Made by a program: the position numbers and the translations under genes. The notes below the pieces were generated by a model that saw nothing but the letters and a program-made list of their open reading frames with translations, was not told where the DNA came from and made no database searches. From positions 1 to 55,732 of IMG/VR virus record IMGVR_UViG_3300020450_000030: DNA of 55,732 nucleotides. One strand, given 5' to 3'. This document shows positions 490 to 39,700 of the stretch, piece by piece. The stretch is from a virus. Its lineage: Duplodnaviria > Caudoviricetes. Position 1 is the stretch's first letter. Each line of letters starts with the position of its first letter.

Positions 490-1415
490 TAGATTGTGTT
501 GTCAGTAATAGATCCAACTGAACCGAATGGATTTGCTTCAGTAAAGTCAATGATCTGATTGTCAAGAGTTTCAAAGTCGTTGTTTTGATCCATCTCAATA
601 TTTTTATTGTCGATGGTATTATATGTAGCAGTTGTCCAAGAGGCACTTGAACTACCACCTGTCAATGTTTCTGGTACAGTGAATGTTCCAGAACGATTAA
701 TAACAATGAGAGTTCTCGTAGAACTATCCCATGATTTAACTTCGGCAGTCACGTTAGATGTACCACCTGTTACAATTTCTCCTACTGTAAAGTCTCCACT
801 ACCACCAGTTGCAAGACCAACTGTAATAGCATTTGCAAACGCATTTTCTATAGCATCGAGATCTGTAATGCCTGTATTGATTTCTTCGTCGCTGTACTCG
901 AATAGTTCACATTGACATTCCCAAACGTAGTTCCTACCTAACTGATAAAAAGGTCTTTCTACTTCTACAAATTTTATTTCAAACAAATGTCTGGTAATAG
1001 GAAACCATATTAAGTCCCCTTCGTTTGGTCGTCCTTCGACGTTAAGCGTTGTAGAGTCGTCAACATGCTCTTTAAATTTTTCACGGGAGAATATAAAAGT
1101 TGTCTTGTCTTCAATACGGATTCCAAATTTTGTAAGTAACTCACCTTGTCCTTCCCATCCTTCAACATTATTGACGTAAGCTCTGATAGCTTTCGCTGAC
1201 TCAAATTTTCCATCCGAATCTTCTTCAAAGATTGAATCTTTGTTGACAATCGTTCTCGGAACATAGTAAATGTCTTGCCCATAGATCTCGATACTTTCTA
1301 CGATTAAGTTTTCAATGAATTTCTGCTCTTGAGCAGATCCATTTATATTTAGTCTTGCACTATTACTATAGTCTGACTGAACATAATCCTGAGCTGGTGT
1401 GTTTGAAATTGCCAT
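489..1415 (-). CDS. gp14: Neck protein gp14
   Basis: ESIEIYGQDIYYVPR, RPNEGDLIWFP, FEIKFVE..PFYQLG, CELFEYS, DFTEANPFG motifs; synteny. Confidence 0.93.
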   Translation of the reverse strand: MAISNTPAQDYVQSDYSNSARLNINGSAQEQKFIENLIVESIEIYGQDIYYVPRTIVNKDSIFEEDSDGKFESAKAIRAYVNNVEGWEGQGELLTKFGIRIEDKTTFIFSREKFKEHVDDSTTLNVEGRPNEGDLIWFPITRHLFEIKFVEVERPFYQLGRNYVWECQCELFEYSDEEINTGITDLDAIENAFANAITVGLATGGSGDFTVGEIVTGGTSNVTAEVKSWDSSTRTLIVINRSGTFTVPETLTGGSSSASWTTATYNTIDNKNIEMDQNNDFETLDNQIIDFTEANPFGSVGSITDNTI

Positions 1416-1416
1416 G

Positions 1417-2223
1417 TTATCCTACAATATCTAACGGTGGTATTTCATAACGATCACGGAGTTCTTTTTCAAGATCTAACTTATACTGACTAGCATCTTC
1501 TAAGATTTGTCTACCGTTCAAAGTGACTCCTCCTAACATTTGAATACCATCATACTTACTAAGGTTTCTACCCCACTGTTGTTGGAATAGTGCCTCAACA
1601 TAATCCTTTAACCAGTTGTCATTAAACATATCAGTGAAGGTTGTAGGATCTTGACGCATTGTCATATCAACCATTATAAAATCACCTGTGGTAAGATCAT
1701 TCCAGTCAAAGTCTAAGTAAAGTCTATTAGAATGTTCATTCCATTTGACTCTTCTATTTGCTTGAGAGTTGGTGACAAAATCAAGAGTTTCTAAGTATTG
1801 AGATGTTAGGAAATAATGTAGTATCTGTCCATGAGTCATGGAGTAGATATCATTCAAAAATATTTGATATTTGATATTGAAAATATTACCAGGTACAATA
1901 CTTGATGCACCTATATTTGTGTACACATGATTGATACCTAAAGTACCAGGTGGTGTAGATACATAGTTATCTTGTCCAAACCAAGGAGTTGATCCTTCTT
2001 GAGTAAATCCTTTTGCCTGTGTTTTAATGGCATCAGTGACTTCTATTCTCATGAAGGTTTTAAAACTACCATTGTAATGGTACTCTTGATAGTAATCTAT
2101 TGCCTCTTCTATTAAATCATCCAGCTGCTCAGTGGCAACATTAATGTCTATCGTAGGAAAACCTAATCTACGAAGAGCATAATCTTTTAATTCTGTTTTA
2201 GTTGCAGGTCTTGTAGCAGACAT
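1417..2223 (-). CDS. gp13: Neck protein gp13
   Basis: LKDYALRRLGFPTIDINV, WLKDY...QWGRNLSKYDGIQMLGGVTLNG motifs; synteny. Confidence 0.95.
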   Translation of the reverse strand: MSATRPATKTELKDYALRRLGFPTIDINVATEQLDDLIEEAIDYYQEYHYNGSFKTFMRIEVTDAIKTQAKGFTQEGSTPWFGQDNYVSTPPGTLGINHVYTNIGASSIVPGNIFNIKYQIFLNDIYSMTHGQILHYFLTSQYLETLDFVTNSQANRRVKWNEHSNRLYLDFDWNDLTTGDFIMVDMTMRQDPTTFTDMFNDNWLKDYVEALFQQQWGRNLSKYDGIQMLGGVTLNGRQILEDASQYKLDLEKELRDRYEIPPLDIVG

Positions 2224-2229
2224 AGTTTA

Positions 2230-5200
2230 TTAACCGAATGAACTGATAGTTAAGTTAGTTACATCATTAGCACCAACTGTCTCTCCTTTTTTGAAGAATC
2301 CAGATACATTATCTACAGTCACAGAAGATGAGTCCATCGCTGTTATAACTCCTGTGCTATTTGAAGTTGCTCCTGTTAGAGTTGATCCAACCTCCATAGT
2401 TGTGATGTCGGATAAACTGAAGGTAGCATTAGTGAATACTGTTGCAACATCAAGTGTTGCATTAGTAAAGATTGTAGCAATGTCAATCGACGCTCCATTT
2501 CCATGTATTGCAGATACTGGAATCGTTGCACCATTACCATGTAAATCAGATACAGGTATGGTAGCATCTGCATTTCCTCCTGTAATAGTTATAACTTCTG
2601 ATGATGCATAACCAGATCCATCATTGTTAATTGTTGCAGAAGTGACATTTCCACTCACATCAACAACGATATCAAGAGTCAATCCTGTACCAGATCCAGA
2701 GGATGTTGTTGCAACACCTGTTTGTGATCCTGGAGTGTATCCTGTGCCTGCTGCACTTATAGGACCAAGAGTTTTAACACCAGTTGCGTTAGCATTTACG
2801 ATTGTAATCGTATCGGAAGTTGTAAATCCAGTACCATCATTATTGATTGCTACTGCTGTGATTGCACCAGAACCATCTACAGATGTTATGTCTATTGTAA
2901 AGTCTGATCCAGATCCGTCATTGGTTGTTGCGATTGCAGTTCCAGTTGAGTATCCTGTTCCTGCTGTAGCAATAGATCCAAGAGTCTTAACACCAGATGC
3001 GTTAGCATTGACGATTGTTATTGTATCATCAACTGCGTATCCAGATCCTGCAGCGTTTATCACCGCACCAGTGACAACACCATTTGAAGTTGTCAAGTCA
3101 ACTGTCAATCCTGATCCAGATCCAGTGGTTGTTGTAGCGATAGCAGTTCCGTTTGCATATCCTGTACCACCTACGAGTGTATCGACTGTCGCTGCTCCAC
3201 CCGCATTAGGGTTTGTAATTGTAATTGTATCACCTGCAGCATACCCTGTTCCTGCAGCGTTAATAACAACGTTTGTTATTGCTCCGTTTCCATCAACCGT
3301 AGTATTAACTGTTAAAGCATCATCACCAGATCCAGAGTTTGTAGTAGCAACACCAGTTCCTGCTGTAAATCCACCGACACCTCCAGATAATGTACCTAAG
3401 TTAAGAGTAGCAGCACCACCAAGATTAGAGTTGACAATTGTTAGTGTGTCTCCTATTAAGTAATCAGTTCCTGCAGTGTTTAGTGCGATCGCTGTGATAG
3501 CACCATCACCATCTACTGTAGTATCAACTGTCAATCCTGATCCTGTGCCACCTGTTGTAGCAACGTTTGTGCCTGCTGTAAATCCACCAACACCACTAGA
3601 GGTTATTGATCCAAGAGTGACAACTGCACCAGGTGTAGGATCGCCAGATAGATTTAGTTTTAATGTAGTAGAAGTTGCAAGATTGTTCAACATCGCTTGA
3701 AGTTGCTCAAACGCATGATCAAGTTTTGCTTGTACTCTTGCTTCTGTATGATATAGATTAGTTCCTTCTGGAAGATTTGTAGTAGATTTCTGACTTAGAT
3801 CTAAGTTTGCACCAGTTGCAGCAGCAACTCTTGCATCTGCTCTTGTGTTTGTAAAGAATACATTTGAAGATCCTTCTGTTATATTATCAGTATTGATATC
3901 TGACTGAGTTACAGCAAGTCCACCTGCACCATCATGTTCAATACCTGTGCCATATGTAAAGTGTCCTCTAGTTCTAGCAGCAGTTGTGAATAGGTTTGTT
4001 GAACCCTCGGTAACATTATCTGTATTAATCTCAGATTGAGTTACAGATAAAGTTCCTGATCCATCATGTTCAATACCTGTGCCATAAGAGAAGTGTCCTC
4101 TAGTTCTAGAAGCAGTAGTAAAGAGATTTGTAGATCCTTCAGTGACATTATCAGTATTAATATCTGATTGAGTGACAGATAGACTTCCTGATCCATCATG
4201 CTGAATACCTGTACCATAAGAGAAGTGTGATCTTGTTCTAGCAGCAGTTGTGAATAGATTAGTTGTTCCTTCTACAACGTTGTCAGAGTCAAACTCAGTA
4301 AAGTCAATCGCCAAATCAGCAGAGGTTAATTTAATACCTGTGCCATATGTAAAGTGTCCTCTAGTTCTAGCAGCAGTTGTAAAGAGATTGGATGATCCTT
4401 CTACAATACTATCACTATCAAACTCAGAGAATGCAAATGCTAATGTATAAGTTCCTGCAGCATCATCATAAGTCTTAGTTAAACCTGTACCTGCAGTTAT
4501 AAGAGCATCAACTCTATCATCAACTCTCTCATTTGTGAAGTATAGATTGTTAGATCCTTCAGCAAGAGAATCTGTATCATGGTTAGTAATACTGGATACT
4601 GTACCAGTGACATTACCTGTTAGATTACCTGTAAAGGTTGTTGAGTGTACGTTAGCATATTTGTTGGAGGTTGAACCAATGCTTCTTGTATTATTAGAAT
4701 CTGATAATAGATCACCTGTTAGAGTTGCACCTGTTGCTGAAGTGACAAATGTAGCAGTTCCATTATATCCTAAAGTGACTGCCCCATCAGCATCAACAAT
4801 TAGTCCAAATGAAGTGCCATTTTGACTCTTGACCTCAAGTTGTGCTGTTTGAATTATTTGTTTAGATGTTCCTGTTGACTTATAAAGAGTATTAGTGCCA
4901 TCAGATTCAATAACTGCGTCAGTTCCTGCACCAAGTTTAACAGCAACGTTATCACCAAACAGTAATGCGTTATCTGATTTATCAAATACTATATTACCAC
5001 CACTTGCTGATACAAGAGTTAAGTCATCATTAAGTGTTGTAGTTCCTTGAACAGTTAATATATCATCTACATTTACAGTTCCACCTGCAGAATCAAGTGT
5101 TAAATTACCAGATGATGTATCAATCTCATTTGCTCCTGCGACACCAACTTGAATATTCTGTGCGACTAACTTAGAAGTAATTTGATTAGATGCAAAATTA

Positions 5201-8200
5201 CCAGATCCATCACGTATTACTAAGTTATTTGCAGCGTTTGTACTTGCAGATGCTACGTTGATTGTAGTATTACCAGATATACCATCAGCATTTGTTAGTG
5301 TAATACCAGAGGATGCTGTGACTTGGAACGTACGATGAGCATATGTGTTCGTAGCAGTTCTGACCATGTATCCTGTGCCAGATTGTGCAGCAAGTGCAGT
5401 AATATCTCCATCATTAAATGTGACTGAGAGTGTTGGATCAGAAGCACCGTTAATTGATACTGAACCATCTACAACACCATCAATGGTCAATGTTCTAGCA
5501 GTCTTCCATGCATCAGCAGTTGATGCGTTTCCTAAGATACCTGCTGAAGCACCTGCAGAACTTGATACTGTAATTTGATCAGCAGAGAAACTACCAGATG
5601 ATCTAACTACAACACTATTACCAGTTGTATCTGTAGAACTTGTGGTCAATCCATCAAGTAGATCTGCGTTAAGATTATTAACTTTGGTTGAAGATGCTAC
5701 TACAAATGGTGCTACACCTTGAGGAAGTTGAGAAATTATTTGACCATCAACTGTTGCTGTACCATCAACATTTAAGTTATTATCAATATCAACAGATGTA
5801 CCTGCACCAGTGACATTTAAAGAACCAATTCTCAAAGCACCATCAGTTCCAGAAAATACTTCACTATTATTAGTAGCAGCAGTTAAGAAAGCAAATTCGT
5901 TAGTTGATCTATCAAATCCAAAGAATCCTAATCTTGCTTGGGAATCAAAATATCTAAACTCGATACCTCTGTCTTTACCATCGTTTGATGCAGGAGCAGT
6001 ATCACCACCAAGAGTAAATACTGGATCATCAATTGTGACGGTTGTTGAGTTAACAGTAGAAGTTGTACCATTAACCGTAAGATTACCTGTGATAACTAGA
6101 TCAGAACTACCGATTATATCTCCTTGAACCGTTAATGTTCCTTGTGTCTCAGTATTACCATTATCTGTATCTACTACAAACTTATCTGCAGCACTTGCAT
6201 TCTGTATTTTAAATACTTTATTATCTGCCTTAACAATTAATTGGTTTTCAATAACTGTTGAACCTGATATATTTGCACTACTATTGAGATCGAGAGCACC
6301 TGTTAATTCAGTGCCACCATACACCCTAAGCCCGCCACCAACTGCTAAGTTTTTACCGATACCTGCACCACCAGTCAATCTTATAGCACCATCAGCAGCA
6401 TATGATCCTGTAAGAGTTTGTTCTGTATTATTGGTGAATGTGTTGACACCAGATGTCTGGAAAGTATCATTGATCTGAGTTGCATCACCAACTGTCAATG
6501 TACCGATAATATTAGTATTACCATTATCAGTATCAATACTAAACTTAGTGACACCAGATCCATTGTTTACATTAACTACCTCACTATTGCTTTGAATAAT
6601 TAGAGAGTCATTGATAGTTGTTTGACCTGCAACAACTAGAGTACCATCAGTTGCAATATTACCTGTAGAAGATGCAACAGTCATCTTATCAGTTGTACCT
6701 GATCTAACTGCAAAGTTTGCATCGACATCTAAAGTGCCATTGATTTCTGTGTTGTTAGCAACAGTCAGTGTACCACCAAGAGTTGTATTGTTATCTACGT
6801 TAAGTGTAGAGTTTAACTCAGTGTGTCCATCAGCAGTCAGCGTACCTTCAATATTAGTATTACCAGTCACATTATCAACAAAGAACTTATCAGTCGTTCC
6901 GTTTCTAACTGCGAAATCAGCATCAATATCAACAACACCATTAATATTAACTGTACCTTCAATTATAGTATTACCATTATCTGTATCAACTGTAAATTTA
7001 TTGACTCCTGATCCATTTTGAATATGGAATGATTCGTTAGAAGCATTAACTATAAGACTATCATTTATATTTGTCTCACCTGCAACTGTTAGTGTACCTT
7101 GAATATCTGTATTACCAGTTGCACCGATAACACTAAACTTCTCTGTATCACCACTGTTCAACTTACCAACTGAGAATCTCTCTCCTGACCCTGTAGCACC
7201 AACGTACAAGGATTTCATAATACCTGCACCACCATGTGCCTTTATCGTGGAGAAGTTGTGAGATGCATAGGAAGGAGATGCCTGATATGTATCACCAAAA
7301 CGACCTCTGTATCTTACTCTCAACCAGTTCAATCTAGATTCAGTCTCTGTCGCACTATCCTTAACTTCGATAGGACCATTAACATGCAATGTACCATCAA
7401 TCAGACCAGATCCTGCTACATAGAAACCACCATCAAGTCTAAGTGCACCATAATCATTTGATTGAATTTCCCAAGCACCAGATGTTCCGTTCTTGGCAGT
7501 AGTAATATCATTTGTGCTTTCTAGATGTACATCTCCTGCTACAGCAACATCACTATTAGAATCTATATTACCAGTGACTGTAAGTATTCCACCAATTTCA
7601 GCATTACCTGTTGTGGTATGGAATGTAGTCTTAGTTGTGCCAGAACCATTCTTAAGTTCTAAAGTTTTAGATGCACCTTGGAATACAATATTATCATCAA
7701 ATCTACTTGTAGAATTAGCACGGAATGTACCATCTACATCTAATAATCCACCAACATTAACATCTTGTGTAATTCCAACACCACCTGCAACTACCAAATC
7801 TCCTGTAGTATTAGATGTTGAGTTAGTATTACTTGTAAGTTTTAAGTTACCCGCACGGATTCCTGAGTCAGTTCCTGTAAAAATCTCTGCGGAACTTTGT
7901 GAGGCATTGTGTAAGAACGCAAACCCTCCTGTGTGTCCTGCGAGATCTGCATACGAATCGTCGTAACCGAAGAATCCAAGTCTTGCTTGAGAGTCAAAAT
8001 ATCTGAACTCAATTCCCCTATCTTTATTATCGTCAGTAGTAGGAGCAGTGTCGCCACCCAAGGTAAATACTGGGTCATCCACTGTCGTAGTTGTACTATT
8101 AACTGTTGTAGTTGTTCCATCTACTTGTAAGTTTCCTAAAATTTGTACAAGACCTGTGATTGCTCTATCATCACCAGGATCAAGTTTAAGTGTACCAGTT

Positions 8201-9795
8201 GATGCAAGGTGATCTCCTTGTATCCTCATGTTTTCTACATGAACCTTACCAGTTGATGCGTCAGATGCTTGGATGTCTACAACATCTTCAGCAGTAATAC
8301 TAACTGTACTGGTTCCAGAACCTGAGTTAGTTGCTGATATGCTCAAGGATCTAGCAGAACTAGAACTTTGAGTTGTTTGAATTATTAGATTACCATCACC
8401 AGTTTTGTCTATTGTTTGTGCAGTAGCACCATCAAACACAACATCGGGATCACTTATTAAAGTTTTTACATTAATATCAACTTCACCGTTGCCACTATCA
8501 CCTGTATTATTTGCAGCAAATAATAAACCACCTGACGTATTTTTTACATTTAGATAATTTACTCCAGTAAGTCCTCTATATCCAGTTGTTGCGGTTAACT
8601 CTTGATCTAATTCAAAATGTTCAACAGAATTACCATCAGCAAAAGATATACGATTGTTTTGTAATTGTGTATTGTCTACACCTGCAGATGCAATAGTTAC
8701 ATGTCCTGATGATACATCAAAATCTTCTTGTGCAAAAGATGCAAGACCTTTTTGTTCTGTAGTTTCAGCACCAAGGAATCTCCATCCACCTGCATCTCCA
8801 GAACCATGAGTAGGAGCACCTTGACCTGCACTTATATCTTGGAATGCCTGATATACTTTACTTGCATTTTTGATGATTGCGTATCTAGTATATGCTGTTG
8901 CATTATTATAATCTGCAGCAGTTGTACCCTCTTGTGCTGTGGCAATAGGTACATTTGTGGCAGAGGTTAATCTACCATGTGCATCGACTGTAAATTTTGT
9001 AGCGTTTACAGTTTCTGTACCAAATGGTTCTGAGTTAGAACCTGTAGAACTGACAGATGTTAATGACTCTGTATTGTAATCACCTGCTACTACAGCAGTT
9101 GTGATAAGATCTAACGTTGGGTTTCCAGAAACACCATTACCATTAGATACTGAAATTCTTGCAGGAGTACCAGTGATTGTTCTGGTCGCCATGTTTCCAC
9201 CACTGGTTCTTGATATGATACCAGTAGTAGTAAGTCCTGCTATAGCAACCAAGTCAAGATCATATGGTTGAGCAGATGAACCCTCTACAGTTCCGTTTAA
9301 GTTATAATCAGCAAGAGTTGAAGGGAATGAAGCGTTTGTTATTCTACCTTTAGAATCTACTACAACTTTTGTGTATGTACCAGTAGCACTTCCAGTACCA
9401 TCATAATGTGGTAATGTAGATATAAGTTCTAAGGAAGAAGCAAGGTTTAGGTTTTGAGAACCATCAAAGTTTCCTGTTGCAGTTAAGTCGCCAGATATTT
9501 GTATTTGACGAGTTGAAGCAAGTCTTGCAGCAGTTGATGAATTACCAATTATAGTTGCAGTTATAGTACCTGCAGAAAAATTACCATCAGCATCTCTCTG
9601 CACGAGAGTGTTGGCAGTATTTGAGGTTGATTCAACTGGACGTTCATATCGTAAGGTATTCCATGCAGAAACACCATCACCGATTTTAAATCGACCTGTA
9701 TCTAACTCAATCCCAAGTTCACCTTGAGCAAGTGTTGGGTTTGCGTTTGCCCATTCCTGAGCACCCCCTCTTCTTAATTGTAATCTATTTGCCAT
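2230..9795 (-). CDS. Long tail fibre / fibre-like virion protein (2521 aa) with Mtd-N-like N-terminus
   Basis: N-terminal RLQLRRG..EW..ANPTLAQGELGIELDTGRFKIGDG..W (Mtd N-terminal-like); G/T/S/N-rich shaft repeats; own late promoter. Confidence 0.85.
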   Translation of the reverse strand: MANRLQLRRGGAQEWANANPTLAQGELGIELDTGRFKIGDGVSAWNTLRYERPVESTSNTANTLVQRDADGNFSAGTITATIIGNSSTAARLASTRQIQISGDLTATGNFDGSQNLNLASSLELISTLPHYDGTGSATGTYTKVVVDSKGRITNASFPSTLADYNLNGTVEGSSAQPYDLDLVAIAGLTTTGIISRTSGGNMATRTITGTPARISVSNGNGVSGNPTLDLITTAVVAGDYNTESLTSVSSTGSNSEPFGTETVNATKFTVDAHGRLTSATNVPIATAQEGTTAADYNNATAYTRYAIIKNASKVYQAFQDISAGQGAPTHGSGDAGGWRFLGAETTEQKGLASFAQEDFDVSSGHVTIASAGVDNTQLQNNRISFADGNSVEHFELDQELTATTGYRGLTGVNYLNVKNTSGGLLFAANNTGDSGNGEVDINVKTLISDPDVVFDGATAQTIDKTGDGNLIIQTTQSSSSARSLSISATNSGSGTSTVSITAEDVVDIQASDASTGKVHVENMRIQGDHLASTGTLKLDPGDDRAITGLVQILGNLQVDGTTTTVNSTTTTVDDPVFTLGGDTAPTTDDNKDRGIEFRYFDSQARLGFFGYDDSYADLAGHTGGFAFLHNASQSSAEIFTGTDSGIRAGNLKLTSNTNSTSNTTGDLVVAGGVGITQDVNVGGLLDVDGTFRANSTSRFDDNIVFQGASKTLELKNGSGTTKTTFHTTTGNAEIGGILTVTGNIDSNSDVAVAGDVHLESTNDITTAKNGTSGAWEIQSNDYGALRLDGGFYVAGSGLIDGTLHVNGPIEVKDSATETESRLNWLRVRYRGRFGDTYQASPSYASHNFSTIKAHGGAGIMKSLYVGATGSGERFSVGKLNSGDTEKFSVIGATGNTDIQGTLTVAGETNINDSLIVNASNESFHIQNGSGVNKFTVDTDNGNTIIEGTVNINGVVDIDADFAVRNGTTDKFFVDNVTGNTNIEGTLTADGHTELNSTLNVDNNTTLGGTLTVANNTEINGTLDVDANFAVRSGTTDKMTVASSTGNIATDGTLVVAGQTTINDSLIIQSNSEVVNVNNGSGVTKFSIDTDNGNTNIIGTLTVGDATQINDTFQTSGVNTFTNNTEQTLTGSYAADGAIRLTGGAGIGKNLAVGGGLRVYGGTELTGALDLNSSANISGSTVIENQLIVKADNKVFKIQNASAADKFVVDTDNGNTETQGTLTVQGDIIGSSDLVITGNLTVNGTTSTVNSTTVTIDDPVFTLGGDTAPASNDGKDRGIEFRYFDSQARLGFFGFDRSTNEFAFLTAATNNSEVFSGTDGALRIGSLNVTGAGTSVDIDNNLNVDGTATVDGQIISQLPQGVAPFVVASSTKVNNLNADLLDGLTTSSTDTTGNSVVVRSSGSFSADQITVSSSAGASAGILGNASTADAWKTARTLTIDGVVDGSVSINGASDPTLSVTFNDGDITALAAQSGTGYMVRTATNTYAHRTFQVTASSGITLTNADGISGNTTINVASASTNAANNLVIRDGSGNFASNQITSKLVAQNIQVGVAGANEIDTSSGNLTLDSAGGTVNVDDILTVQGTTTLNDDLTLVSASGGNIVFDKSDNALLFGDNVAVKLGAGTDAVIESDGTNTLYKSTGTSKQIIQTAQLEVKSQNGTSFGLIVDADGAVTLGYNGTATFVTSATGATLTGDLLSDSNNTRSIGSTSNKYANVHSTTFTGNLTGNVTGTVSSITNHDTDSLAEGSNNLYFTNERVDDRVDALITAGTGLTKTYDDAAGTYTLAFAFSEFDSDSIVEGSSNLFTTAARTRGHFTYGTGIKLTSADLAIDFTEFDSDNVVEGTTNLFTTAARTRSHFSYGTGIQHDGSGSLSVTQSDINTDNVTEGSTNLFTTASRTRGHFSYGTGIEHDGSGTLSVTQSEINTDNVTEGSTNLFTTAARTRGHFTYGTGIEHDGAGGLAVTQSDINTDNITEGSSNVFFTNTRADARVAAATGANLDLSQKSTTNLPEGTNLYHTEARVQAKLDHAFEQLQAMLNNLATSTTLKLNLSGDPTPGAVVTLGSITSSGVGGFTAGTNVATTGGTGSGLTVDTTVDGDGAITAIALNTAGTDYLIGDTLTIVNSNLGGAATLNLGTLSGGVGGFTAGTGVATTNSGSGDDALTVNTTVDGNGAITNVVINAAGTGYAAGDTITITNPNAGGAATVDTLVGGTGYANGTAIATTTTGSGSGLTVDLTTSNGVVTGAVINAAGSGYAVDDTITIVNANASGVKTLGSIATAGTGYSTGTAIATTNDGSGSDFTIDITSVDGSGAITAVAINNDGTGFTTSDTITIVNANATGVKTLGPISAAGTGYTPGSQTGVATTSSGSGTGLTLDIVVDVSGNVTSATINNDGSGYASSEVITITGGNADATIPVSDLHGNGATIPVSAIHGNGASIDIATIFTNATLDVATVFTNATFSLSDITTMEVGSTLTGATSNSTGVITAMDSSSVTVDNVSGFFKKGETVGANDVTNLTISSFG
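2401..3630 (-). repeat. Five nested ~80-aa beta-rich domains in the fibre C-terminus
   Basis: Five bodies (..VATT..GSG.GLTVD..V...GAIT...IN.AG.GY...DTITI) followed by five stacked terminal strands. Confidence 0.8.
3725..4585 (-). repeat. Tandem ~120-bp / 40-aa fibre repeats (xTDNVTEGSTNLFTTAARTRGHFxYGTG)
   Basis: Seven EG(S/T)xN(L/V)(F/Y)-type units; the central ones are near-identical in DNA with a 120-nt period. Confidence 0.9.
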
Positions 9796-36700: not shown

Positions 36701-39700
36701 ATCTTAAATTTACTGCGGGAGTAGAAGAATATCCTGCACCAGGATCCTTAACTATAATTACATCTAATCTACCATTTTTGATAGTTGCTTCAGCAATAGC
36801 ACCACTACCACCACCTCCAGTGACTACAACAGCAGGTGCTTGTGAATATCCAGTACCTGGGTCTGTAATAGTAATACTATCAAGTATGCTTGTAGAAGTA
36901 AGCTGTGCGTTTATTGGGAATGATATCTCAGGGCGTAGTGTATAATCATGTGGATAATCATAACCAAAGTTATTGTTCTTAAGTTTCTTAATTTTACCAA
37001 CATTAGCACCTTTAGTAAATACAGATGCTCCTGTACCTGCTGATGGTATAACAACTACTAATTCAGCACCTGATCCAGTCAATCCAGATCCAAGAATGCC
37101 AGGTATAGCATTGATATCAATAATTGCTGTGGTATAATTTTTACCTGGTGATGTGACAACTACATTACTGATTTGACCAGGAATTGTTGATCCTTGTGCA
37201 TCAGTGCCATCAGCAACTGTAATTTGTACAAATCCACCTTCACCATCACCACTAATAGGAACGCCATTGTATGTTCCAACAGCGTATTCAGTACCTGGTG
37301 CATTTATTTGTACTCTCTCAATTTGTCTGCTTGATGTAATACCACTAACAATGGGTAATTTAGTATAGAAACCACCAGGATTAACAATACGAACATCACC
37401 AATTGCACCAACCGCTTTTAGAGAACTGGTTTGGTAAGATGCTTGTGATATAGTTGCAGCACCCTCTGGTTCGTTTGCAAGTGGGAATTTAAGTATATCA
37501 GCACCTTTAGTAATAGTAGCACCTGCAACAGAACTAATTTCAAATGTTCCGTTATATGGAGAATCTACAACATCGAGATAACTTCCTGCTACAACAGGAG
37601 AATCATTACCTGTTCTTGATGGATCAAAGTAGTATGATATGTTTGTTACTATATCTCTATCAACTTTAAGTTTTACTGTAGGAGTTGGTTGTCCACCGCC
37701 AGTCACACCAGGTGTACCTACTCTCTCTATAGAGTTAAATGAATATTCTAGTTTGTATAGATTATCTTTTGCAAATGATAAGTTTCCACCTGCCATAGAT
37801 GAATGACTTAGATCAAACAGATATTGATGACCATAATACATCTTCAATGTAGGTGATTTAATAAAGACACTTACAGCAGATGCACTTGTAGCAGGAGCAG
37901 TCAAAGCATTTGATTTTAATTTATATGTAAATTCAAGAGGACTAACAACTCTCTCTACAGCAAATGCACCATCATATTCATCATATACAACACCACTAAG
38001 AGTTTGTGATGGATTACCATCAATGTAAACCATATCACCCTTATCTAAGTAATGACTTGTATCTGTAATTACATAAACCTCATCACTATTTGCTACAGCA
38101 GTTGCTTGAAGAATCTTAGTTAGATTTGCAACTAAAGTGATTTTAAGAACACCTGTTAATCCACTAATTGTTGCTTGTGAATAATCAGCATTAAATGATA
38201 TATTTCCTGCACCTATAGTGACCACAGATCCAACAATGTATGCTGATGATCCAGAAACTTGATCTATTCTTACTGAGTAATCAGCATCAGCGTATGGTTT
38301 GAACGTTGCAAATGAATCAAGATTACCTGTGCAAGAATTAATACTAAACTTAGCATCTCCATTACCACCACTTACTACAACTTCATCTCCAACTAGATAT
38401 CCACTACCTGCAGCATTACCAATTTGAATTGATTGTATAACACCACCAGATGCAGTATAGTTGACGATTAATCCAGTTGCTTCACCATTAGTTGTGGTTG
38501 TAGGAATACTATCACCAGAATTAGGATAACCAGTTCCTGCTGCAGTTAAAGAAATAGTTGCAGGAATATCAGCGATTGTACCATCTAAATCAAAACTATC
38601 CAAATTGATAATAAATGTGCCAGGTGTTTGATTATTGATCTCTGCAAATGTATAATTGCTTATCTCATTAATGTCATTAGGAATATCACCAGTAATACCA
38701 TAATTACTTTGCTCATTAAATTGCTCTGTAGATAACTGACCAGTGGTTAGATCATTACTCCAAGCATTATTATTAACTGCCAAGTATAATTTATTGTTTG
38801 CATCGTCCTTTCTAATAATATAACCACTATTGACAAATTGTCCAGAGTCATTCTTTAATACTAATTTAGAACCAACAGAGAAGTTAAATGCTTGATTGAT
38901 AGTCAATTCTTGTACGTTATCAATCTTAACTGTAGGTGTGACTTTGAAGTAATATCTATCTTTAACAACTGCAGTGACTTGTAGTTTTTGTGAACCTGGT
39001 GAAGGAACAGTAGCAGTTCTAGAACTCCAAATATCTTGAACATGAGTTATAGTCTCAGTGTCCTCAGACATAGTTGTTGTACTATCATCAAAGTCTAATG
39101 ACTGATAACCTGCATCTCCAAGAGGATAACCATTTATATTAATTGTAAGAGGTGAACCAGTGACAGGTGATACAGCAGTTCTTACAAAACTTACACCACT
39201 ATTAGGTTTCTTACCTTGATCTCCTAATCTTACTGCATCAGCATTTTTATCACTCTTAAGACCAAATCCTGCATAATCAATATAATCATAACGACTCATA
39301 TGATCAGTAAACCAAGCATCATCAACCCAATCAATTGTAAGACCATATGCACCTGCAGTAGGTAGTGCAAGAATATCACTAGGAACTGTTGGTGTGACTG
39401 CTCTATTTCTTAAACGTAAGTGATCTATATGGAATTGACCTTGTTCATTAGATCTAAACTGACCTAATGTACCATTCGCACCAGGAATATTACCAATGTA
39501 TAGATCTTTAGCACCTAATGATGTTCCTGATATAGTACCAGTAAGAACTTCAATTCCATTTACATATGCCTTAAATGTATCACCACTCTTAGTGACTGCT
39601 ATTGCTTGCCATGTATTATCAGCATATAAGTTTGTTTGTGATGATGTTAAAGAACTACCTGCAGAGTTGATACTTGTTGTACTATTAGTAATAGTCATGG

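What the first reader, a model, noticed from the sequence alone, without database searches (positions are those of the whole stretch)
2401..3630. Second, independent Russian-doll array: five-deep nesting at the tail fibre C-terminus
Seen: five domain bodies each end ..(D/E)(T/V)(I/L)TI without a last strand. Five short strands then follow in a row (GNADATIPVSDLH / GNGATIPVSAIH / GNGASIDIATIF / TNATLDVATVF / TNATFSLSDIT, 2401-2577). An un-nested copy in gp7 (~38330-38570: ..AAGSGYLVGDEVVVSG-GNGDAKFSINS) shows that this strand normally completes the domain. The stack itself sits between the first strand (TTLKLNLSG) and the remainder (MEVGSTLTGATS...GFFKKGETVG) of a small beta-barrel-type domain. 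Inference: the chain runs out and back, making a rod whose tip is mid-sequence. This is a different domain family from the gp7 tree, so recursive self-insertion looks like a general mode of virion protein growth here.
Basis: partly seen in the sequence, partly recalled or inferred. Interest (0 to 1): 0.85.

Follow-up and report, generated by a model that had tools for sequence, protein, structure and literature searches.

The report
Five nested domains in cyanophage fibre
The last 480 residues of a giant fibre protein of a marine T4-like cyanophage most likely form a rod of five small beta-domains inserted one inside the next, each finished by a short strand that the chain supplies on its way back, so the far tip of the rod lies in the middle of the sequence.

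Summary
On the minus strand, the last 480 residues of a 2521-aa fibre ORF (2230-9795) hold five 68-73-aa bodies, then five 11-15-aa strands, then a 56-aa end domain.

The nested reading is well supported, though I saw no atomic contacts.
- Body and strand counts match in 119 of 120 proteins and in all 79 parsed IMG/VR loci (3 to 8 levels; 1 and 2 levels seen by eye).
- Against a profile built from un-nested copies in other proteins, the four outer bodies lack the last strand. The five return strands score as that strand.
- Two relatives about 85-89% identical differ from the window by one 92-aa indel. It is a complete domain sitting in the last hairpin loop of the window's innermost domain.
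- AlphaFold2 folds the two innermost levels at pLDDT 95.3 and pTM 0.82, and the detached strand is ordered.

The full 484-aa fold failed (pLDDT 39). One homolog has 4 bodies and 3 strands.

The domain has no Pfam family and no PDB fold match. The closest known parallels are Si3 of cyanobacterial RNA polymerase and the sheath protein gp18.

This scan reported the same architecture earlier on other genomes. My searches found it in no paper.

The parts
2230..9795 (-). Fibre ORF, 2521 aa. Mtd_N domain at residues 6-43. Member of PHROG 697, the cyanophage 'structural protein / fiber' family.
3640..3672 (-). Conserved segment STTLKLNLSGD just before the stack, following a helical stretch. It is a possible first strand of the end domain, which was not tested.
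   Evidence: (invariant columns)
3436..3639 (-). Body 1, the outermost level: strands a1-GY-b1-c1-a2-GY-b2, with no last strand.
   Evidence: the hit stops at model position 70 of 81..
3217..3435 (-). Body 2.
   Evidence: the hit runs to model position 79 only by overlapping the first strand of body 3..
3013..3216 (-). Body 3.
   Evidence: the hit stops at model position 71 of 81..
2800..3012 (-). Body 4.
   Evidence: the hit stops at model position 71; pLDDT 91-97 in the two-level model.
2584..2799 (-). Body 5, the innermost level. It is contiguous with its closing strand, so B5+C5 is a complete un-nested-type domain and the presumed tip of the rod.
   Evidence: full model coverage, positions 2-80, i-Evalue 2.4e-26..
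2539..2583 (-). Closer 5 (TGGNADATIPVSDLH): the loop and last strand of body 5.
   Evidence: 9.3 bits as last strand against 4.0 as first strand; strand at residues 146-153.
2503..2538 (-). Closer 4 (GNGATIPVSAIH): the proposed last strand of body 4.
   Evidence: 11.2 against 1.4 bits; 8-residue strand at 158-165, block pLDDT 94 and 86.
2467..2502 (-). Closer 3 (GNGASIDIATIF): the proposed last strand of body 3.
   Evidence: 9.5 against 4.0 bits; the level-3 body type tracks the level-3 closer type in 22 of 22 five-level stacks.
2434..2466 (-). Closer 2 (TNATLDVATVF): the proposed last strand of body 2.
   Evidence: 11.0 against 1.1 bits.
2401..2433 (-). Closer 1 (TNATFSLSDIT): the proposed last strand of body 1.
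   Evidence: 7.4 against 1.3 bits.
2233..2400 (-). 56-aa C-terminal small domain (TMEVGSTLTG...SSFG). On this reading the returning chain brings it back to the base of the rod.
   Evidence: PHROG 697 positions 2024-2078; PHROG 358.
38325..38570 (-). Un-nested complete copy of the same domain in the 7305-aa gp7-like ORF (24777-46694). It ends ..VVVSGGNGDAKFSINS.
   Evidence: i-Evalue 1.9e-19, model positions 5-79.

Best explanation
**What it is.** The fibre ends in a self-nested stack of one domain family.

**The domain.** A complete domain has about 82 aa and six strands: a1-GxGY-b1-loop-c1-turn-a2-GxGY-b2-'GGNxDA' loop-c2.

**The nesting.** In the window, the b2-c2 hairpin loop of each of bodies 1 to 4 is occupied by the next domain.
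- The chain runs outward through five bodies and turns in the innermost, complete domain (B5+C5).
- It then runs back, giving each open body its missing c2 strand in reverse order (C4, C3, C2, C1).
- The 56-aa end domain therefore returns to the base, next to the helical segment. The far tip of the rod is the innermost domain, about 120-200 residues before the C-terminus.

**How it grows.** The rod grows or shrinks in whole levels.
- At the tip, one insertion of a complete domain adds one body and one closer at once.
- Inside the array, paired indels are needed.

**Shown.**
- The repeat grammar and the missing strand in the outer bodies.
- The c2-like nature of the return strands.
- Count parity across relatives.
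- The single-indel relation between 5-level and 6-level fibres.
- A confident fold of the two innermost levels.

**Inferred.**
- The actual strand pairing and the rod geometry.
- That the tip domain contacts the host.
For: **1. Count parity.**
- 120 proteins were parsed with independent regexes for bodies and closers (the window's own plus 119 listed homologs out of 331 hits).
- 119 are balanced: 3/3 in 44, 4/4 in 24, 5/5 in 27, 6/6 in 18, 7/7 in 1, 8/8 in 5. That is 77 of 78 unique stacks.
- Of 80 IMG/VR loci, 79 parsed and all are balanced (78 by regex, L059 by eye). 44 of these stacks are new.
- One-level forms (P0141, P0142, P0216, P0132) and two-level forms (P0126, P0131) were seen by eye.

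**2. The closing strand belongs to the domain.**
- It is part of the domain in 31 of 148 other proteins whose hit covers the whole model, or 51 with relaxed ends.
- With a profile built from 23 such un-nested domains, B1, B3 and B4 stop at position 70-71 of 81. B5 is complete.

**3. Strand identity.** Against that same profile:
- 5 of 5 outgoing strands score higher as a1: 5.9-7.7 against 2.2-5.9 bits.
- 5 of 5 return strands score higher as c2: 7.4-11.2 against 1.1-4.0 bits.

**4. A single indel links 5-level and 6-level fibres.**
- The window against P0011 (420/474 identical) and against P0004, the P-RSM3 'fiber' (405/474), each show one 92-aa gap.
- The gap is a complete domain plus GNG, lying between ..EVITI(T/V) and A(T/Q)IPVS...
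- So the strand that is contiguous with body 5 here is detached in those relatives.
- P0017 against P0016 shows one 91-aa gap at the same place.

**5. Register.**
- An Asp in the second GxGY loop of a body goes with a His at the end of the closer of the same level in 257 of 273 non-contiguous pairs.
- With a shift of one level the figures are 146/196 and 204/273.
- In 22 of 22 five-level stacks the level-3 body type matches the level-3 closer type.

**6. AlphaFold2 on B4-B5-C5-C4 (169 aa, 42-row alignment A2).**
- Mean pLDDT 95.3 and pTM 0.82. All five models score 93.2-95.3.
- C4 is an 8-residue strand, like C5.
- The first strand of B5 has the same short form as that of B4.

**7. Independent models.** BFVD holds independent predicted models with the same two-domain arrangement: TM 0.70 and 0.67, rmsd 3.5 and 3.8 A over 177 and 176 columns.
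Against: - **No contacts seen.** No coordinates or contact map were available. So C4 packing onto body 4, rather than hairpinning along C5, was not seen directly.
- **The whole stack did not fold.** It gave pLDDT 38.9 with an 11-row alignment.
- **One exception.** P0068 (one contig) has 4 bodies and 3 closers.
- **The profile is not clean for body 2.** HMMER can read the first strand of body 3 as the last strand of body 2.
- **MAFFT placement is unstable.** It placed un-nested domains differently depending on context.
- **The Asp/His rule is not strict.** The counts agree in 61 of 78 unique stacks.
- **The pairs are not independent.** The sequences are related, so the number of independent events is far smaller than the number of pairs.
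Confidence: 0.8

Rival explanations
1. Strand-swapped tandem array. Each body is closed by the first strand of the next body, so 'GVKTLGSI' acts as the last strand. The return strands fill the vacant first-strand positions. The chain still runs out and back with one return strand per body, but the domains are swapped rather than inserted.
For: - It predicts the same count parity.
- HMMER extends the body 2 hit over the first strand of body 3.
- In one context MAFFT aligned the last strand of un-nested domains onto 'GVKTLGPIS'.
Against: - 5 of 5 outgoing strands are more a1-like and 5 of 5 return strands more c2-like.
- The single 92-aa indel shows that the same strand is either contiguous or detached as c2.
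- The Asp/His concordance peaks at the same level: 94% against 74-75% when shifted by one level.
- In the AF2 model the first strands of B4 and B5 have the same 4-residue form, and C4 has the same 8-residue form as C5.
Confidence: 0.1
2. Two independent arrays. The five bodies are complete tandem domains, and the five short strands form a separate structure, for example a trimeric beta-helix. The equal counts would reflect how the repeats mutate, not how they pair.
For: - The protein is a fibre and is probably trimeric. Its N-terminal part has fibre-type repeats and an Mtd_N domain.
- Short 11-12-aa repeats do occur in fibre shafts (general knowledge).
- The full-length monomer did not fold.
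Against: - Mid-array differences between relatives need two separate indels, about 70 aa in the bodies and 11-12 aa in the closers. Yet the counts stay equal in 119/120 and 79/79.
- The bodies are one strand short of the un-nested domain.
- C4 is ordered in a monomer model.
Confidence: 0.06
3. Not a real feature: low-complexity Gly/Thr-rich sequence that only looks like repeats.
For: The composition is strongly biased. Overlapping plus-strand ORFs appear in the same stretch.
Against: - There are five profile hits at 5e-14 to 2e-26 with a profile built from unrelated proteins.
- The family has 1360 members at E<=1e-3.
- The AF2 model reaches pLDDT 95.
Confidence: 0.01

Closest known systems
Si3 insertion of cyanobacterial RNA polymerase beta' (RpoC2)
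   Same: - One small beta-domain family is inserted recursively into copies of itself.
- Several copies are built from distant parts of the chain, giving an elongated arm.
- A 2026 survey calls its 6-level nesting in Prochlorococcus RpoC2 the showcase of hierarchical insertion.
- Sources, passages read: PMC13114784 and PMC10895346.
   Different: - The fold differs. Si3 is made of sandwich-barrel hybrid motifs, and my model has no PDB match at E<=1e-3.
- Si3 is branched and of fixed size within a lineage.
- The fibre stack is strictly linear and regular: all bodies first, then all closers.
- It varies from 1 to 8 levels among close relatives.
- It sits in a virion fibre, not an enzyme.
'Russian doll' domain organisation of contractile sheath proteins (T4 gp18; diffocin CD1363)
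   Same: - It is a phage tail protein in which domain I is inserted in II, II in III, and III between the termini that form IV.
- Sources, passages read: PMC3004832 and PMC6088184.
- There is a weak Pfam hit to Gp18_dom_I at residues 247-278 of P0001.
   Different: - The sheath domains have different folds. They are not copies of one domain.
- The depth is 2-4 and is fixed.
- The Pfam hit is below the cut-off: 18.5 against 27 bits, E 0.002.
- Foldseek found no sheath structure.
Un-nested and tandem copies of the same GxGY domain in other phage and bacterial proteins (for example P0269, P0154, P0256; P0147 and P0148)
   Same: The sequence family and strand grammar are the same, including the ..ITI(S/T)GGNxDATIxV ending.
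   Different: - There the last strand follows its body directly.
- The family has no Pfam model and no solved structure by sequence.
S-TIM4 ORF108 and other cyanomyovirus 'YadA domain-containing structural protein' / 'fiber' genes
   Same: - They are orthologues: 48.8% identity over the whole 523-aa query (H23), in the same PHROG 697.
- ORF108 was mutated in all experimentally evolved populations and is placed in the tail fibres (PMC6224464, passages read).
   Different: - The passages I read do not describe the C-terminal architecture.
- No YadA Pfam family is detected in the window's protein at E<=1.

Membership tests
Recursive self-insertion of one domain family (the kind of architecture seen in Si3) | A domain is interrupted in sequence by a complete copy of the same family. 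| tested here: met
   - one 92-aa indel, a complete domain, lies in the b2-c2 loop of the window's innermost domain in P0011 and P0004.
- outer bodies lack model positions 72-81.
- the return strands are c2-like.
Recursive self-insertion of one domain family (the kind of architecture seen in Si3) | The two separated pieces of the host domain come together in three dimensions. | tested here: inconclusive
   the two-level model has pLDDT 95.3 and pTM 0.82, with the detached strand ordered. No coordinates are given, so the pairing was not seen.
Si3 / SBHM (HABAS) domain family | Sandwich-barrel hybrid motif fold. | tested here: not met
   Foldseek against 350,542 PDB chains gives 0 matches at E<=1e-3 and a best TM of 0.23; there is no sequence match either.
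T4 gp18-type sheath domain I (Pfam PF22639) | Score above Pfam's gathering cut-off. | tested here: not met
   18.5 bits against a cut-off of 27, E 0.002.
Cyanomyovirus fibre / structural protein family (PHROG 697) | Full-length profile match. | tested here: met
   E 0 and 3308.8 bits for the whole protein; 3.5e-122 for the last 523 aa; 244 phage records, all Synechococcus, Prochlorococcus or cyanophage.
Phage tail fibres with an Mtd_N N-terminus (Pfam PF18454) | Score above the gathering cut-off at the N-terminus. | tested here: met
   47.8 bits against 26.3, residues 6-43.
YadA-type trimeric autotransporter adhesin (the name given in several records) | YadA head, stalk or anchor Pfam domains. 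| tested here: not met
   no YadA family at E<=1 in the 2521-aa protein. The name comes from the record annotations.
Trimeric fibre | Three chains per fibre, and the arrangement of the three stacks. | not tested
   No multimer fold of the stack was run. The single complex job asked a different question.

The most novel reading that the evidence does not exclude
The fibre tip is a length-programmable hairpin rod that grows by tip insertion.
- One recombination event drops a complete domain into the last hairpin loop of the current tip. That adds one level and at the same time swaps the exposed tip module.
- Two alternative tip types, standard and 'GIKTVGNFGATD..', occur on stacks of 3 to 7 levels.
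- The host-contacting determinant would then sit mid-sequence in the innermost domain.
- The true C-terminus would be parked at the base of the rod.
- The same grammar would be a general building rule for virion proteins of marine phages. An unrelated 1604-aa protein, P0130, shows 11 bodies and 11 closers in balanced bracket order.
Probability: 0.35. Interest if true: 0.85.

Novelty: new variant of a known kind. Interest (0 to 1): 0.7.

Why it matters
Domain-in-domain insertion is known, but mostly one level deep and between different folds. The deepest case I found in print is six levels, in cyanobacterial RNA polymerase.

Here one domain is inserted into itself five times in a strictly linear order, and relatives carry 1 to 8 levels. 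Close relatives also differ by exactly one inserted domain. That catches the growth step in the act.

If the structure is confirmed, three things follow:
- It gives a simple natural rule for building rods of adjustable length from one chain.
- It moves the functional tip of a phage fibre away from the C-terminus. That matters for reading host-range mutations and for annotating receptor-binding regions in cyanophage genomes.
- It defines a widespread domain family (1360 representative proteins at E<=1e-3) that has no Pfam entry and no solved structure.

Tried and rejected
- **AlphaFold2 on the whole 484-aa stack** with 10 five-level homologs. Mean pLDDT 38.9 and pTM 0.26, so it could not be used.
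- **Complex prediction** with B4-B5-C5 as one chain and C4-C2 as the partner. The verdict was 'no answer' (ipSAE 0.01, mark 0.32) and the controls were not run. This is no evidence either way.
- **PDB by sequence**: only a chance hit at E 1.5.
- **Foldseek against the PDB**: nothing at E<=1e-3.
- **ESM Atlas**: the nearest 30 clusters have no common Pfam family, and no structure search was possible.
- **Pfam on the last 523 aa**: only two sub-threshold hits.
- **MAFFT placement of un-nested domains as evidence.** Rejected, because the placement changes with the set of rows.
- **Early regex counts.** The first count gave five 4/3 cases. Four of them (P0077, P0079, P0080, P0081) were false positives on the first GY motif of body 2. 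A first spacing filter then miscounted the same proteins as 2/3. One search is the corrected count.
- **TRF on 2200-4600**: no DNA tandem repeat inside the stack.
- **Literature searches** and a term search inside the RBPseg fibre atlas. None describes this architecture in a phage fibre. Only 9-15 titles per search were seen, and supplements are closed.
Full report
**Where it lies.** The finding sits on the minus strand at the 3' end of one ORF, 2230-9795, 2521 aa.
- The window is the structural module of a T4-like cyanomyovirus. The last 523 aa match 244 phage records, all Synechococcus, Prochlorococcus or cyanophage. P-SSM3, P-SSM4 and P-RSM3 are closest, at about 82%.
- The genes downstream are a head-tail adaptor, a head closure protein and a tail sheath stabiliser.
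- The protein has an Mtd_N domain at residues 6-43 and belongs to PHROG 697. Records name its relatives 'fiber', 'structural protein' or 'YadA domain-containing structural protein'. No YadA Pfam family is found.

**The observation.**
- Five bodies lie at 3436-3639, 3217-3435, 3013-3216, 2800-3012 and 2584-2799.
- Five short strands lie at 2539-2583, 2503-2538, 2467-2502, 2434-2466 and 2401-2433.
- A 56-aa end domain lies at 2233-2400.
- A profile built only from 23 un-nested domains of other proteins finds the five bodies at i-Evalues from 5e-14 to 2e-26. The repeats are therefore real, although they are not a DNA-level tandem repeat.

**The domain.**
- A profile search of 1.84 billion representative proteins found 1360 proteins at E<=1e-3.
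- In 31 of the 148 new proteins returned, one hit covers the whole innermost-domain model including the last strand. With relaxed ends the number is 51.
- These copies give the grammar: a1, GxGY, b1, Gly-rich loop, c1, turn, a2, GxGY, b2, 'GGNxDA' loop, c2.
- The window's own gp7-like ORF holds such a copy at 38325-38570.
- The family has no Pfam model and no solved relative by sequence.

**What is missing in the bodies.**
- In bodies 1 to 4, only one strand lies between the loop after b2 ('N.NA.G') and the next GxGY motif. In tandem un-nested arrays there are two.
- The independent profile stops at position 70-71 of 81 in B1, B3 and B4, and covers 2-80 in B5. In B2 it runs on only by overlapping the first strand of B3.
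- Scored against the a1 and c2 blocks of that profile, all five outgoing strands are more a1-like: 5.9-7.7 against 2.2-5.9 bits.
- All five return strands are more c2-like: 7.4-11.2 against 1.1-4.0 bits.

**Counts in relatives.**
- Bodies and closers were counted with separate regular expressions. Of 120 proteins (the window's own plus the 119 listed of 331 hits), 119 are balanced: 44 with 3 levels, 24 with 4, 27 with 5, 18 with 6, 1 with 7 and 5 with 8.
- That is 77 of 78 unique stacks.
- The exception is P0068, on one contig, with 4 bodies and 3 closers. It differs from P0050 by a 12-aa deletion between near-identical closers. It may be real or an assembly collapse.
- Earlier counts with more 'exceptions' were regex errors that I checked by eye.
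- Of 80 IMG/VR loci, 79 could be parsed and all are balanced, 78 by regex and L059 by eye. 44 of these stacks are new.
- One-level and two-level forms exist (by eye).

**The growth step.**
- Global alignment of the window's stack with P0011 (420 of 474 aligned residues identical) and with P0004, the P-RSM3 fiber (405 of 474), gives a single 92-aa gap in each case.
- The gap is a complete domain of a variant type plus 'GNG'. It sits between ..EVITI(T/V) and A(T/Q)IPVS...
- So the strand that directly follows body 5 in the window is the detached fifth closer in those phages.
- P0017 (6 levels) and P0016 (7 levels) differ in the same way, by 91 aa.
- Differences inside the array come as paired gaps, about 70 aa among the bodies and 11-12 aa (or 23 aa for two levels) among the closers.
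- This explains the parity. It also shows that a closer is the last strand of a body that began earlier.

**Register.**
- The Asp in the second GxGY loop of a body and the His at the end of a closer agree at the same level, counted from outside, in 257 of 273 non-contiguous pairs.
- The figures are 146 of 196 and 204 of 273 when shifted by one level, and 38% when shifted by two.
- In all 22 unique five-level stacks, a 'T.DTLV' level-3 body goes with a '.D.A..F' closer, and a 'KTLGSI' body goes with a 'PVSAIH' closer.
- These sequences are related, so the independent events are few. The Asp/His counts agree in 61 of 78 stacks.

**Structure prediction.**
- The whole 484 aa with an 11-row alignment failed (pLDDT 38.9).
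- The two innermost levels (window 2494-3000, 169 aa) were run with alignment A2. It held 16 two-level rows, plus 25 single-domain rows that aligned on the contiguous inner domain.
- That job gave mean pLDDT 95.3 and pTM 0.82, with all five models at 93.2-95.3.
- The detached strand C4 is an ordered 8-residue strand (158-165), like C5 (146-153). The first strands of B4 and B5 have the same short form.
- The tool returns no coordinates, so I could not see the pairing. A hairpin of C4 along C5 is not excluded by this output alone.
- Foldseek finds no PDB match at E<=1e-3.
- It finds 17 BFVD models at E<=1e-3. Two of them match across both domains, at TM 0.70 and 0.67.

**How it most likely works.**
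- The chain goes out through five open bodies and closes the innermost domain. It then returns and gives each body its last strand.
- The short linkers (6-7 residues out, 3-4 back) require the first and last strands of each inserted domain to lie side by side. This is an inference.
- The rod's far end is then the innermost domain, and the end domain returns to the base.
- That the tip binds the host is also an inference. It rests on the fibre's role and on the two interchangeable tip types.
- In S-TIM4 the orthologue was mutated in all populations evolved on different hosts (PMC6224464, passages).

**Comparison with what is known.**
- Recursive insertion of one domain family is documented for Si3 of cyanobacterial RNA polymerase. 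A 2026 survey describes it as six-level nesting (PMC13114784, passages; PMC10895346, passages; PMC11515920, listing only).
- Sheath proteins have a 'Russian doll' of different domains (PMC3004832; PMC6088184).
- The fibre stack differs in four ways: its fold, its strict linear order, its variable depth (1-8), and its place in a virion fibre.
- My searches found no description of it. I saw only the listed titles and passages, and supplements are closed.
- This scan has reported the same architecture on other genomes. I used those notes as leads for the comparisons and tested the claims here independently.

**Untested side claims.**
- Whether STTLKLNLSG is the first strand of the end domain was not tested. 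Weak un-split relatives of that domain in a 2421-aa ORF and in the head-closure protein are preceded by strand-like segments.
- The claim that gp7 uses a different family is doubtful. The same profile hits about 20 modules in gp7 and others in two further ORFs.

Noticed in passing
P0130 (1604 aa), residues about 100-1100: An unrelated protein of the same domain family has 11 open bodies and 11 closer-like 'sGF..V....' strands. They are ordered as 4 bodies, 2 closers, 6 bodies, 1 closer, 1 body, 8 closers. That is a balanced, branched bracket word. Counted by eye and with a rough regex.
   Followed up: partly
window 24777-46694 (-), the 7305-aa gp7-like ORF; also the 1469-aa and 511-aa ORFs named -2_10733 and -2_12214: The profile of the fibre domain hits about 20 GxGY modules in gp7 (i-Evalues down to 1e-11, plus the full copy at 1.9e-19) and several in two other large ORFs. 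The fibre domain and the gp7 modules are therefore related, not separate families.
   Followed up: partly
window 3856-4272: A 132-nt tandem repeat, 3.2 copies, 80% matches. It encodes the 44-aa 'TEFDSDN..EG.TNLFTTAARTRGHF.YGTGI' repeats of the fibre shaft just upstream of the stack.
   Followed up: no
P0147 and P0148 (982 and 973 aa): These are secreted-looking proteins with a signal-peptide-like start and a C-terminal region typical of Bacteroidota surface proteins (my reading, not tested). They carry about ten un-nested three-strand GxGY units in tandem: five of a 'GY..ATGVATT..GxGTGL.VDI' subtype, then five of a 'GY.VGD.ITI.GGNGDA.I.V' subtype.
   Followed up: no
window 492-1415 (-), residues about 187-264 of the head-closure (gp14-like) protein; also a 2421-aa ORF (frame -1_12720): Weak un-split relatives of the fibre's 56-aa end domain (i-Evalue 1.2e-3 and 8.8e-6). 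A neck protein and another giant structural protein share this small barrel-like module.
   Followed up: no
P0068 (2197 aa): The only unbalanced stack, with 4 bodies and 3 closers. It lacks one 12-aa His-type closer relative to P0050. It could be an evolutionary intermediate or a collapsed repeat in a metagenome assembly.
   Followed up: partly
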